Below, in pieces: positions 7,327 through 7,782 of a DNA stretch of 11,570 nucleotides. The position numbers were made by a program, and so were the translations under genes. Under the pieces are notes generated by a model. It saw nothing but the letters and a program-made list of their open reading frames with translations, was not told where the DNA came from and searched no databases. This DNA comes from a virus. Lineage: Duplodnaviria > Heunggongvirae > Uroviricota > Caudoviricetes. The stretch covers positions 1 through 11,570 of the IMG/VR virus record IMGVR_UViG_2778261346_000008, one strand, 5' to 3'. Positions within the stretch are counted from its first letter, which is position 1; each line of letters starts with the position of its first letter.

Positions 7327-7355
7327 TTGGCTGAGAAATCTAAAACGGGTAGAAT
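7327..7355 (+). promoter_or_regulatory. hok mRNA promoter
   Basis: TTGGCT 7327-7332, 17-nt spacer, TAGAAT 7350-7355; predicted start near 7362 where sequence (GGTGCTTGAGGCTATCTG...) resembles the 5' end of plasmid R1 hok mRNA as I recall it. Confidence 0.55.
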
Positions 7356-7410
7356 GACTGCGGGTGCTTGAGGCTATCTGTCTCAGGCATGAACACCAAA
7401 AGGCAGACAG

Positions 7411-7483
7411 AGAAAAGCCCCAGTTAACATTACGCGTCCGGCAAGACGCTTAACATTAATCTGAGGCCATATCTATGCTCTAC
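7411..7483 (-). ncRNA. candidate Sok-like antisense RNA
   Basis: Minus-strand promoter TTGCCT (7518..7513), 17 nt, TAACCT (7495..7490), analogous to the R1 sok promoter layout; transcript would be antisense to the hok leader and upstream in-frame start at 7475; 3' end not defined. Confidence 0.35.
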
Positions 7484-7531
7484 ACACGTAGGTTAGCCTC
7501 TTACGTGCCGAAAGGCAAGGAGAAGCAGGCT

Positions 7532-7687
7532 ATGAAGCAGCAAAAGGCGATGTTAATCGCCCTGATCGTCATCTGTTTAACCGTCATAGTGACGGCACTG
7601 GTAACGAGGAAAGACCTCTGCGAGGTACGAATCCGAACCGGCCAGACGGAGGTCGCTGTCTTCACAGCTTACGAACCTGAGGAGTAA
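7532..7687 (+). CDS. hok: Hok/Gef-family type I toxin (51 aa, MKQQKAMLIALIVICLTVIVTALVTRKDLCEVRIRTGQTEVAVFTAYEPEE)
   Basis: Single N-terminal TM helix plus conserved C-terminal Hok motif; AAGGAG RBS before ATG 7532. From memory closest to HokD(RelF)/HokC(Gef). Track ORF from 7475 is an in-frame upstream extension. Confidence 0.85.
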   Translation: MKQQKAMLIALIVICLTVIVTALVTRKDLCEVRIRTGQTEVAVFTAYEPEE

Positions 7688-7755
7688 GAGACCAGGCGGG
7701 GGAGAAATCCCTCGCCACCTCTGATGAATCAGGCATCCTCAACGCACCCGCACTT

Positions 7756-7782
7756 AACCCGCTTCGGCGGGTTTTGTTTTTT
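7756..7782 (+). terminator. intrinsic terminator after hok
   Basis: AACCCGC (7756-7762), TTCG loop, GCGGGTT (7767-7773), then T-rich run to 7782. Confidence 0.7.

What the first reader, a model, noticed from the sequence alone, without database searches (positions are those of the whole stretch)
7327..7782. Complete hok/sok-type type I toxin module at the island boundary, with an in-frame upstream start
Promoter, a leader resembling the R1 hok mRNA 5' end, a Hok toxin ORF, a candidate antisense promoter for Sok, and a terminator are all present. Unlike the R1 arrangement as I recall it (mok in a different frame), the upstream ATG at 7475 is in frame with hok, so translation from it would give an N-terminally extended 70-aa Hok. 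The module lies directly beside the island operon.
Basis: partly seen in the sequence, partly recalled or inferred. Interest (0 to 1): 0.45.

Follow-up and report, generated by a model that had tools for sequence, protein, structure and literature searches.

The report
Ordinary prophage hok/sok toxin-antitoxin module
This is a complete, apparently intact copy of the well-known hok/sok RNA-controlled toxin-antitoxin module (hokD/hokW type) in an E. coli lambdoid prophage. Its "in-frame upstream start" is the mok leader gene in the arrangement already annotated for phage 933W and for E. coli K-12 hokC, so the finding is real but ordinary.

Summary
Window 7327-7782 holds a sigma-70 promoter, a hok mRNA leader (Rfam sok RF01794, 113.7 bits), a 51-aa Hok ORF (7532-7687, 100% identical to K-12 HokD), a convergent Sok gene (about 7483 to 7413, minus strand) and a terminator. 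The mRNA 5' end (tac, 7362-7373) pairs with a 3' element (fbi, 7737-7749). That helix is conserved, with one compensatory change, across 36 diverged hok mRNAs.

The ATG at 7475 lies 57 nt upstream of hok and is in frame, giving a 70-aa ORF. This is not a departure from the family. Phage 933W annotates mokW (70 aa), hokW (51 aa) and sokW (71 nt) in exactly this layout, and K-12 mokC/hokC share a stop codon. Among HokD/W-type loci sampled here, 70 of 87 distinct sequences have the 57-nt spacing. Relatives with the same Hok protein have 56 or 58 nt, so the frame is not constrained. R1 itself has 58 nt, out of frame.

The nearest studied relative, hokW-sokW of prophage Sp5 (93% nucleotide identity, identical Sok promoter), is an experimentally proven type I toxin-antitoxin system. 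The exact 70-aa protein is already on at least 1000 public contigs.

Verdict: already known, low interest.

The parts
7327..7355 (+). hok/mok promoter: -35 TTGGCT (7327-7332), 17-bp spacer, -10 TAGAAT (7350-7355)
   Evidence: Consensus scan. Homology with other hok loci starts at the -10 box near 7349, while the -35 lies in context-specific flank.
7362..7782 (+). Predicted full-length hok mRNA (about 421 nt), ends inferred from R1 and 933W
   Evidence: The Rfam alignment starts at 7362. +1 lies 7 nt after the -10. MFE -165.8 kcal/mol, z = -6.45.
7362..7373 (+). tac (translational activator element), GGGUGCUUGAGG, the mRNA 5' end
   Evidence: Pairs with 7737-7749 in the MFE fold. Duplex -22.6 kcal/mol against -16.0 +/- 2.2 for shuffled 3' UTR. 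The helix is 87% paired in 36 diverged hok mRNAs. A local 5' hairpin with 7380-7390 is predicted once the 3' end is removed.
7417..7421 (+). ucb / anti-SD of mok (GCCCC)
   Evidence: Part of it (7417-7419, GCC) pairs with part of the mok SD (7465-7467, GGC) in the full-length MFE fold. Named by analogy with R1 as described in PMC9841398.
7463..7467 (+). Shine-Dalgarno of mok (GAGGC), 7 nt before the ATG
   Evidence: Invariant in 36 hok mRNAs. Pairs with GCCUC 7496-7500 (dcb) in the Rfam consensus structure.
7475..7687 (+). mok reading frame, in frame with hok (70 aa; MLYTRRLASYVPKGKEKQA followed by Hok)
   Evidence: ORF list. 91% identical to MokW of 933W and 72% to MokC of K-12. The exact sequence is on at least 1000 public contigs.
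7467..7489 (.). Target of the Sok 5' tail (mok SD-ATG spacer plus mok codons 2-5); hypervariable patch
   Evidence: Column entropy 0.66-0.85 bit against 0.43 or less elsewhere in the leader, over 77 distinct HokD/W-type loci. Co-resident copies carry different patches.
7413..7483 (-). Sok antisense RNA (antitoxin), about 71 nt
   Evidence: Gap-free mapping of the 933W sokW annotation. Fold is a 15-nt free 5' tail, a hairpin and UUUU, z = -5.4. Rfam RF01794 covers the region.
7490..7518 (-). Sok promoter: -10 TAACCT (complement of 7490-7495), 17-bp spacer, -35 TTGCCT (complement of 7513-7518)
   Evidence: Read from the sequence. Identical to the 933W sequence. Mutating the sokW -10 abolished antitoxin activity (PMC8621323, primers YO-421/422). 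Not detected by the consensus scan.
7517..7522 (+). Shine-Dalgarno of hok (AAGGAG), 9 nt before the ATG
   Evidence: Sequence. CAAGGAG is nearly invariant across the family.
7532..7687 (+). hok toxin gene (HokD-type, 51 aa)
   Evidence: Pfam HOK_GEF 82.9 bits. 100% identical to K-12 HokD. RefSeq annotates 'hokD' in near-identical genomes.
7737..7749 (+). fbi (fold-back inhibitory element), CCUCAACGCACCC
   Evidence: Complement of tac with one bulged C. Conserved position about 48 nt after the stop codon. U-A to C-G compensatory change between the HokD/W/C and R1 clades.
7756..7782 (+). Intrinsic terminator (stem 7756-7773, T run)
   Evidence: Terminator scan. Conservation among loci ends at about 7776.

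Best explanation
Window 7327-7782 is an intact hok/mok/sok type I toxin-antitoxin locus of the HokD/HokW subgroup. It sits in the early-right (nin-like) region of a Rac/Qin-type lambdoid prophage of E. coli.

Mechanism (inferred from R1 hok/sok and Sp5 hokW-sokW; only the sequence and structure features are shown here):
1. A constitutive promoter makes a stable mRNA of about 420 nt. Its 5' end (tac) pairs with a 3' element (fbi), which locks the mok Shine-Dalgarno against an upstream anti-SD, so the full-length RNA is neither translated nor bound by Sok.
2. Slow 3' trimming removes fbi. The RNA refolds and exposes the mok start region.
3. While the unstable 71-nt Sok RNA is present, its free 5' tail pairs with that region, blocks mok translation and triggers RNase III cleavage.
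4. When Sok disappears, ribosomes start at mok (7475) and open the hok ribosome-binding site. Hok (7532-7687) then inserts into the inner membrane and kills or lyses the cell.

Sok would be lost on loss of the element or, as shown for hokW, on prophage induction.

In this copy mok is in frame with hok, so mok translation itself yields a 70-aa N-extended Hok. This is the usual arrangement for this subgroup (mokW, mokC). The frame is a by-product of a 56/57/58-nt spacer rather than a selected feature.
For: - Family membership. Rfam sok 113.7 bits. Pfam HOK_GEF. Hok is 100% identical to K-12 HokD.
- Closest relatives. 93% nucleotide identity to 933W/Sp5 hokW-sokW over the module, with mokW, hokW and sokW annotated in the same 213/156/71-nt layout. 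RefSeq labels the locus hokD in genomes 99-99.9% identical.
- RNA features. The tac-fbi end pairing is predicted for the full-length RNA. It is stronger than shuffles and sits at a conserved position. It is 87% paired with a compensatory pair in 36 diverged family members, against 31-58% for slid controls. Sok folds like canonical Sok.
- Frame not constrained. The mok-hok spacing in HokD/W-type distinct sequences is 57 nt in 70, 56 nt in 9 and 58 nt in 4. In R1-like loci it is 58 nt in 19 and 57 nt in 7. In HokC it is 57 nt in 7 and 56 nt in 2. The spacing is 56 or 58 nt in 10 of the 80 phage-contig loci that encode a Hok 100% identical to this one.
- Literature. hokW-sokW is a working type I toxin-antitoxin system, both RNAs are seen on northern blots, and HokW is made on RecA-dependent induction and aids lysis (PMC8621323). 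[quoted passage not shown]
Against: - Nothing was measured for this copy: no transcript, processing, toxicity or antitoxin data.
- Several chromosomal hok loci tested in the past could not mediate post-segregational killing (as summarised in bioRxiv 10.1101/2025.08.07.668861).
- The MFE fold of the 3'-truncated RNA did not reproduce the tac-ucb stem described for R1, so the active conformation is not shown.
- The Sok-target loop of this allele (CUCUACACA) has no YUNR U-turn motif, unlike 933W and R1. This was read from the sequence only.
- hokW lies elsewhere in its prophage, so its induction biology may not transfer.
Confidence: 0.93

Rival explanations
1. The locus is a silent relic. It looks complete but, like several chromosomal hok loci, it no longer kills or is never activated.
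For: K-12 hokD has lost its whole leader to relBE. Frameshifted hok copies exist among the fetched loci (L117, L125, L118). Earlier work found chromosomal hokA/B/C loci unable to mediate post-segregational killing (cited in bioRxiv 10.1101/2025.08.07.668861).
Against: Every known element is intact and sits at conserved positions. The Hok ORF is identical to a toxic protein. The same module is kept at 95% identity or more in about 4000 E. coli records. The 93%-identical hokW-sokW is active (PMC8621323).
Confidence: 0.1
2. The 70-aa ORF is the real toxin gene. Translation starts only at 7475 and the 51-aa form is not made separately, so there is no leader-peptide coupling in this subgroup.
For: In frame, a ribosome from 7475 cannot terminate before hok, so a 70-aa product must be made whenever mok is translated. 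Gene callers often call the 70-aa ORF. The extension carries net charge +4 (five R/K, one E, read from the sequence), which fits the same N-in membrane topology.
Against: hok keeps its own strong, nearly invariant SD (AAGGAG, 9-nt spacing). Relatives encoding the identical Hok have mok out of frame, or a 19-codon mok ending in ATGA on the hok start. Those copies can only make the 51-aa form. Residues 2-5 of the extension are hypervariable, and the remainder is fixed by overlapping RNA and promoter signals. The 51-aa HokW alone is toxic (PMC8621323).
Confidence: 0.07
3. The module serves the neighbouring AT-rich cargo (three leftward genes of unknown function, 5035-7191). It would act as an addiction or abortive-infection partner rather than serving the prophage as a whole.
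For: It abuts the cargo block, with a G+C step at about 7300. The left flank of HokD/W modules is highly mosaic: 25 flank types in 88 loci, with homology starting at the -10 box. R1 hok/sok has been reported to reduce T4 plating (cited in PMC8621323).
Against: The same module sits next to unrelated left neighbours: relBE in K-12, an acetyltransferase in phage Evi and other genes in 933W. Only 7 of 88 loci share this left flank. A survey found no enrichment of hok near defence systems (bioRxiv 10.1101/2025.08.07.668861). The three genes match no known defence family.
Confidence: 0.1

Closest known systems
hokW / mokW / sokW of Stx2 phage 933W and Sakai prophage Sp5 (Plunkett et al. annotation AF125520; Takada et al. 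2021, PMC8621323)
   Same: 93% nucleotide identity over the module. Same sizes: mok 70 aa and hok 51 aa sharing a stop codon, Sok 71 nt overlapping the mok start by 9 nt. Sok promoter and hok SD region identical. Hok 92% and Mok 91% identical. Both are prophage-borne.
   Different: The Hok C-terminus differs (TAYEPEE here, VDYESEK in HokW). Several bases of the Sok recognition tail differ. The 933W copy has no matching terminator hairpin after fbi. The position in the prophage differs: here between replication/cargo genes and DUF968-rusA-Q, in 933W near the prophage end.
hokC (gef) / mokC / sokC of E. coli K-12
   Same: mokC and hokC share a stop codon, so they are in frame with the same 57-nt spacing. 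Same tac sequence and an fbi-like element. Hok 82% identical.
   Different: The 70-aa ORF is only 72% identical to MokC. In the extension, codons 7-13 differ because of compensating 1-nt indels. The leader is shorter because the Sok hairpin lacks a 22-nt segment. The K-12 copy has IS186 next to it.
hok / mok / sok (parB) of plasmid R1
   Same: Same set and order of elements: tac, ucb, SD-mok, mok, Sok promoter, SD-hok, hok, fbi and terminator. The Rfam model built on this family matches over its full length. The tac-fbi helix is in the same register.
   Different: R1 has a 58-nt mok-hok spacing, so Mok is a 70-aa out-of-frame product (PMC9841398). Hok is 41% identical. tac is GGCGC rather than GGGUGC, with the matching change in fbi. 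R1 is plasmid-borne and acts in post-segregational killing.
hokD (relF) of E. coli K-12, Qin prophage
   Same: Identical 51-aa protein, identical hok SD and 3' UTR including fbi. Same right-hand synteny, with a small ORF then the DUF968 gene (ydfU) and a Q antiterminator downstream; the window also has rusA between them.
   Different: K-12 hokD has lost everything upstream of the hok SD (promoter, tac, mok, Sok), with relBE in its place. The window copy is the complete form.

Membership tests
[quoted passage not shown] | Hok/Gef toxin ORF of about 50 aa with an N-terminal hydrophobic helix and the conserved TRK-LCE-R-G-EVA core | tested here: met
   Pfam 82.9 bits against a cut-off of 22. 100% identical to K-12 HokD. 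Family-invariant residues are present.
[quoted passage not shown] | cis-encoded antisense Sok gene with its own promoter and terminator hairpin, overlapping the mok translation start | tested here: met
   Rfam 113.7 bits against 59. Promoter identical to sokW. Predicted RNA has a 5' tail, a hairpin and UUUU, z = -5.4. This is sequence-level evidence only; the transcript itself was not observed.
[quoted passage not shown] | mok leader ORF with its own SD, starting 56-59 nt upstream of hok and reading through the hok start region | tested here: met
   GAGGC 7463-7467, ATG 7475, open through 7532.
[quoted passage not shown] | 5'-3' end pairing (tac-fbi) closing the full-length mRNA | tested here: met
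   MFE fold. Duplex energy about 3 sd better than shuffles, at the conserved distance from the stop codon. 87% of cells paired with U-A/C-G covariation in 36 sequences, against 31-58% for slid controls. The covariation amounts to one event between two clades.
[quoted passage not shown] | mok SD sequestered by an upstream anti-SD (ucb) in the inactive form; tac-ucb stem in the active form | tested here: inconclusive
   ucb-SD pairing appears in the full-length MFE fold. The truncated RNA's MFE shows the 5' metastable hairpin but not the tac-ucb stem.
[quoted passage not shown] | 3' exonucleolytic processing activates the mRNA; the Sok duplex is cleaved by RNase III; Hok kills by membrane damage | not testable with these tools
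   Shown for R1 (summarised in PMC9841398 and PMC4147584) and in part for hokW (PMC8621323).
R1-type mok arrangement (Mok out of frame with Hok) | 58-nt spacing between the mok and hok ATGs, giving a 70-aa Mok in the +1 frame | tested here: not met
   The spacing here is 57 nt, in frame. R1 has 58 nt (PMC9841398).
mokW/mokC-type arrangement (Mok is an N-extended Hok) | 57-nt spacing, with mok and hok sharing a stop codon | tested here: met
   Same layout as annotated mokW/hokW and mokC/hokC. 70 of 87 distinct HokD/W-type sequences share it.
K-12-type truncated hokD (relB-relE-hokD) | Leader, mok and Sok replaced by relBE directly upstream of the hok SD | tested here: not met
   The window aligns end to end with complete loci. 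K-12 hokD aligns only from the hok SD onward.

The most novel reading that the evidence does not exclude
In the in-frame (57-nt) class, the obligatory 'leader' translation cannot terminate before hok. Once Sok is lost, part or most of the toxin pool would therefore be a 70-aa Hok isoform with a basic N-terminal extension, and it might differ from the 51-aa form in potency, timing or membrane insertion. The published HokW-3FLAG work does not mention mokW or a longer form (PMC8621323).

A related, better-supported point concerns the 23-nt patch that Sok's 5' tail recognises. It is the most variable part of an otherwise conserved leader and differs between copies that share a genome. This suggests diversification that keeps co-resident hok/sok paralogues from cross-silencing each other.
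Probability: 0.15. Interest if true: 0.35.

Novelty: already known. Interest (0 to 1): 0.12.

Why it matters
It matters little as a discovery. The locus is annotated as hokD in RefSeq genomes 99% or more identical to the window. Its architecture was annotated in phage 933W in 1999, and a 93%-identical copy was characterised experimentally in 2021.

Its practical value is in annotation. It marks the complete ancestral form of the truncated K-12 hokD. It also marks the right-hand edge of a variable AT-rich cargo slot in a Rac/Qin-type prophage.

Two small by-products could interest type I toxin-antitoxin specialists:
- The mok frame flips between 56, 57 and 58 nt among loci that encode the same Hok. 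This is natural-variation support for the view that mok translation matters and the Mok protein does not.
- The Sok-recognition patch is hypervariable.

Tried and rejected
- The first Pfam call failed because I gave the hok start as 7533; the ATG is at 7532.
- The promoter scan did not find the Sok promoter. The evidence for it is therefore homology to sokW plus published mutagenesis, not consensus strength.
- I first took AGCCUC (7495-7500) to be ucb. After reading PMC9841398 I reassigned it as dcb and placed ucb at GCCCC 7417-7421.
- Folding the 3'-truncated RNA gave the 5' metastable hairpin but not the tac-ucb stem, so I draw no conclusion about the active conformation.
- Literature on the in-frame gef/orf69 product led nowhere. 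Gultyaev et al. 2000 (PMC1370018) is not held. An 'orf69' search was swamped by unrelated papers. The HokC mutagenesis paper does not mention mok. Pedersen & Gerdes 1999 could not be read, so what I say about it rests on the summary in the 2025-26 preprint.
- The three neighbouring genes gave no Pfam, NCBIfam, PADLOC or PDB-sequence hit. PADLOC gave one sub-threshold match (E 0.002), which I disregarded.
- I ran no further search on those genes, because they lie outside the finding.
- I considered and rejected a chance ORF or chance promoter.

Full report
**Context**

The window is part of a Rac/Qin-type lambdoid prophage of Escherichia coli. It is 99.9% identical over 97% of its length to E. 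coli O145 RM9154-C1. In that genome and in EPEC E2348/69 the annotated gene order is as follows:
- racR-like repressor, ydaT, replication-type genes and a Q-family gene;
- three leftward hypothetical genes;
- hokD and a small ORF;
- a DUF968 gene, rusA and a Q antiterminator.

Pfam on the window's own ORFs agrees. G+C is 32-40% across about 4400-7300 and 52-56% from the finding onward. The finding therefore does sit at the edge of an AT-rich cargo block.

**The observation**

- A sigma-70-like promoter: -35 TTGGCT at 7327, -10 TAGAAT at 7350-7355.
- The Rfam family 'sok' (RF01794) matches 7362-7537 over its whole length at 113.7 bits, against a gathering score of 59.
- The ORF 7532-7687 is a Hok/Gef protein (Pfam 82.9 bits) and is residue-for-residue the HokD (RelF) protein of K-12.
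- The ATG at 7475 is 57 nt upstream of hok and in frame, giving a 70-aa ORF with the same stop codon.
- An intrinsic terminator lies at 7756-7782.
- On the minus strand there is a -35 TTGCCT (complement of 7513-7518), a 17-bp spacer and a -10 TAACCT (complement of 7490-7495). The consensus scan does not pick this up because the -10 is weak. The stretch is identical to the sokW promoter of phage 933W. Takada et al. destroyed antitoxin activity by mutating exactly that -10 (PMC8621323, primers YO-421/422 and Results 2.1).
That 71-nt RNA folds into the canonical Sok shape: a 15-nt free 5' tail, a long hairpin and a UUUU end (z = -5.4).

**Fold-back elements**

- The predicted full-length mRNA (7362-7782) folds much better than shuffles (z = -6.45). 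Its first 12 nt (tac, GGGUGCUUGAGG) close on CCUCAACGCACCC at 7737-7749 (fbi).
- Across the hok loci I fetched, the best complement of the 5' end in the 3' UTR lies at a constant 47-58 nt after the stop codon in nearly all types. It changes together with tac: GGGUGC/GCACCC in the HokD/W/C group and GGCGC/GCGCC in the R1 group.
- On a MAFFT alignment of 36 diverged hok mRNAs, the 12-bp helix is 87% paired. One pair switches U-A (19 sequences) to C-G (14 sequences). Sliding the 3' partner by 1-3 columns drops pairing over the three counted helices from 82.9% to 31-58%. The covariation is essentially one event between two clades, so it is supportive rather than statistically strong.
- In the full-length fold, part of the mok Shine-Dalgarno (GAGGC, 7463-7467) pairs with part of the upstream GCCCC (7417-7421), the 'ucb' anti-SD of the R1 model (terminology from PMC9841398).
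- Removing the 3' end gives the 5' metastable hairpin but not the tac-ucb stem in the MFE fold. The active conformation is therefore not demonstrated.

**The in-frame start**

This is the only part of the finding that claimed something unusual, and it is not unusual.
- Phage 933W (AF125520) annotates mokW (213 nt) and hokW (156 nt) with the same stop codon. It also annotates a 71-nt sokW overlapping the mokW start by 9 nt. These are the same sizes and layout as here.
- The 70-aa products are 91% identical.
- K-12 mokC and hokC also share a stop codon. mokB and hokB do not.
Le Rhun et al. place the R1 mok start codon at 116-118 and the hok start codon at 174-176, which is 58 nt and out of frame, with a 70-aa Mok (PMC9841398). 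R1-type loci in my sample show the same.

**Survey of mok-hok spacing**

I measured the mok-hok ATG distance in 163 hok ORFs fetched from phage contigs and from one genome per species.

| Hok group (distinct sequences) | 56 nt | 57 nt (in frame) | 58 nt | 59 nt | No leader |
|---|---|---|---|---|---|
| HokD/W type | 9 | 70 | 4 | - | 4 (K-12-like truncation) |
| R1-like | - | 7 | 19 | - | 6 |
| HokC | 2 | 7 | - | - | - |
| HokB | - | - | 6 | 2 | - |

- The 56-nt variants give a 19-codon mok whose stop is the TGA of ATGA on the hok start.
- The switches are caused by single-base indels in the spacer, for example AAAGG-CAAGG versus AAAGGTCAAGG.
- All three frame relations therefore occur among close relatives. 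The spacing is 56 or 58 nt in 10 of the 80 phage-contig loci whose Hok protein is 100% identical to this one.
- This is what is expected if only translation of mok up to the hok start region matters and the Mok protein does not, which is the conclusion of the R1 mutagenesis (PMC9841398).
- The exact 70-aa sequence of the window is already in public collections on at least 1000 contigs, under names such as 'Hok family toxin' and 'protein HokC/D'. Close relatives in its cluster are named 'regulatory protein MokC'.

**How it most likely works**

What is shown here is the full set of sequence and structure signals of a hok/sok locus, with no disruptive mutation. The rest is inferred from R1 (PMC4147584, PMC9841398) and from hokW-sokW (PMC8621323).
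1. The stable full-length mRNA is locked by tac-fbi.
2. 3' trimming opens it.
3. Sok's 5' tail binds the mok start region, blocks mok (and so hok) translation and triggers RNase III cleavage.
4. When Sok decays without being replaced, mok translation opens the hok ribosome-binding site (AAGGAG, 7517-7522).
5. Hok then damages the inner membrane.

For the 93%-identical hokW-sokW of prophage Sp5, Takada et al. showed several things. HokW is toxic and sokW rescues the cell. Both RNAs are visible on northern blots. sokW is lost rapidly after mitomycin C. HokW production depends on RecA and precedes endolysin production, and deleting the locus halves phage yield.

The window's copy lies in the sense orientation within the early rightward region of its prophage. 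Read-through during induction could therefore interfere with the convergent Sok promoter. That is my speculation and is untested.

**Rivals**

- Silent relic. This is possible in principle. K-12 hokD is truncated, frameshifted copies exist, and older work found several chromosomal loci inactive (as summarised in bioRxiv 10.1101/2025.08.07.668861). Nothing in this copy is damaged, however, and the module is kept at 95% identity or more in about 4000 E. coli records.
- The 70-aa ORF as the only toxin gene. This is contradicted by the conserved hok SD and by relatives that can only make the 51-aa form.
- A dedicated partnership with the neighbouring cargo genes. This is unlikely because the module's left neighbours are highly mosaic. 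There are 25 flank types in 88 loci, and only 7 loci share this one. Homology between loci begins at the -10 box near 7349.

**Novelty and score**

The finding is already known: annotated in 1999, characterised in 2021, and labelled hokD by RefSeq in near-identical genomes.

Two minor by-products are worth recording. The first is the natural 56/57/58-nt frame variation, which a recent large Hok survey explicitly did not attempt for Mok (bioRxiv 10.1101/2025.08.07.668861, Discussion). The second is a hypervariable patch at 7467-7489, the target of Sok's 5' tail. Its entropy is 0.66-0.85 bit, against 0.43 or less in the rest of the leader, across 77 distinct HokD/W-type loci. Co-resident copies in the same genome carry different patches.

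One caveat applies to the entropy comparison. The phage-contig part of the sample was chosen for identical Hok protein, so only the untranslated leader is a fair comparator.

Interest is 0.12.

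Noticed in passing
window 5035-7191 (minus strand): Three co-oriented leftward genes (365 aa at 6094-7191, 142 aa at 5669-6097, about 213 aa at 5035-5676) lie in an AT-rich block (32-40% G+C). They have no Pfam, NCBIfam, PADLOC or PDB-sequence match, only PHROGs of unknown function (12777, 11490, 9664). By eye, the last protein has a PD-(D/E)xK-like motif (GGHVDLLVKH ... IGEAKLW), an untested lead for a nuclease and so a possible defence cargo. The same trio is present in E. coli O145 RM9154-C1 and E2348/69.
   Followed up: partly
window 7467-7489: This is the most variable stretch of the otherwise conserved hok leader: the mok SD-ATG spacer plus mok codons 2-5, which is the target of the Sok 5' tail. 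Three HokD/W-type copies within one E. coli genome and three within one Shigella genome all carry different patches. This suggests insulation between paralogous Sok/hok pairs.
   Followed up: partly
window 7478-7487: The Sok-target loop of this allele (CUCUACACA) has no YUNR U-turn motif, whereas the 933W allele (CUGA) and the R1 allele (CUAG) do. The allele is nevertheless common among the fetched loci. This was read from the sequences only.
   Followed up: no
related loci L011, L021, L030, L033, L047, L062, L066, L087, L104, L105, L107, L115, L116: Variants with a 56-nt mok-hok spacing have a 19-codon mok whose stop codon is the TGA of ATGA on the hok start codon. This is a termination-reinitiation-style overlap, different from both the R1 and the mokW layouts.
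   Followed up: partly
window 7670-7673: The Tyr47 codon of hok is UAC followed by G, within GCUUACGAACC, which is the UACG motif of TadA A-to-I editing. The 2025-26 Hok preprint states that hokC, hokD and hokE mRNAs are edited at this C-terminal Tyr-to-Cys position (bioRxiv 10.1101/2025.08.07.668861, Introduction). I did not examine this further.
   Followed up: no
window 7347-7776 versus flanks: The conserved module begins at the hok -10 box and ends at the terminator. The -35 lies in context-specific DNA. The left flank falls into 25 types among 88 loci. The right flank falls into 15 types, one of which holds 45 loci including the window. The module therefore marks a recombination junction beside a variable cargo slot.
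   Followed up: partly
window 11158-11344 (+): Rfam STnc100 (RF02076) sRNA match at 115.4 bits against a gathering score of 47, downstream of the Q antiterminator gene (9568-10389).
   Followed up: no
window 4505-5038 (+): A second Q-family antiterminator ORF (Pfam Phage_antitermQ plus a sigma-70 region 4-like match) lies at the left edge of the AT-rich block. It is annotated as frameshifted in the O145 genome and intact in E2348/69.
   Followed up: no
loci L099, L108, L114, L119, L120, L121, L135, L153: Identical or near-identical HokD or R1-type Hok genes turn up in assemblies labelled Veillonella, Acinetobacter, Xanthomonas, Ferruginibacter, Streptomyces, Oscillibacter, Dysgonomonas and Vagococcus, mostly on very short contigs. 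This is most likely enterobacterial or plasmid contamination of those assemblies.
   Followed up: no
window 7231-7270: An inverted repeat (TTTTTGCG ... CGCAAAAA) lies in the intergenic region between the leftward 365-aa gene and the hok promoter. It could be an operator or a terminator for the leftward operon. Seen by eye.
   Followed up: no
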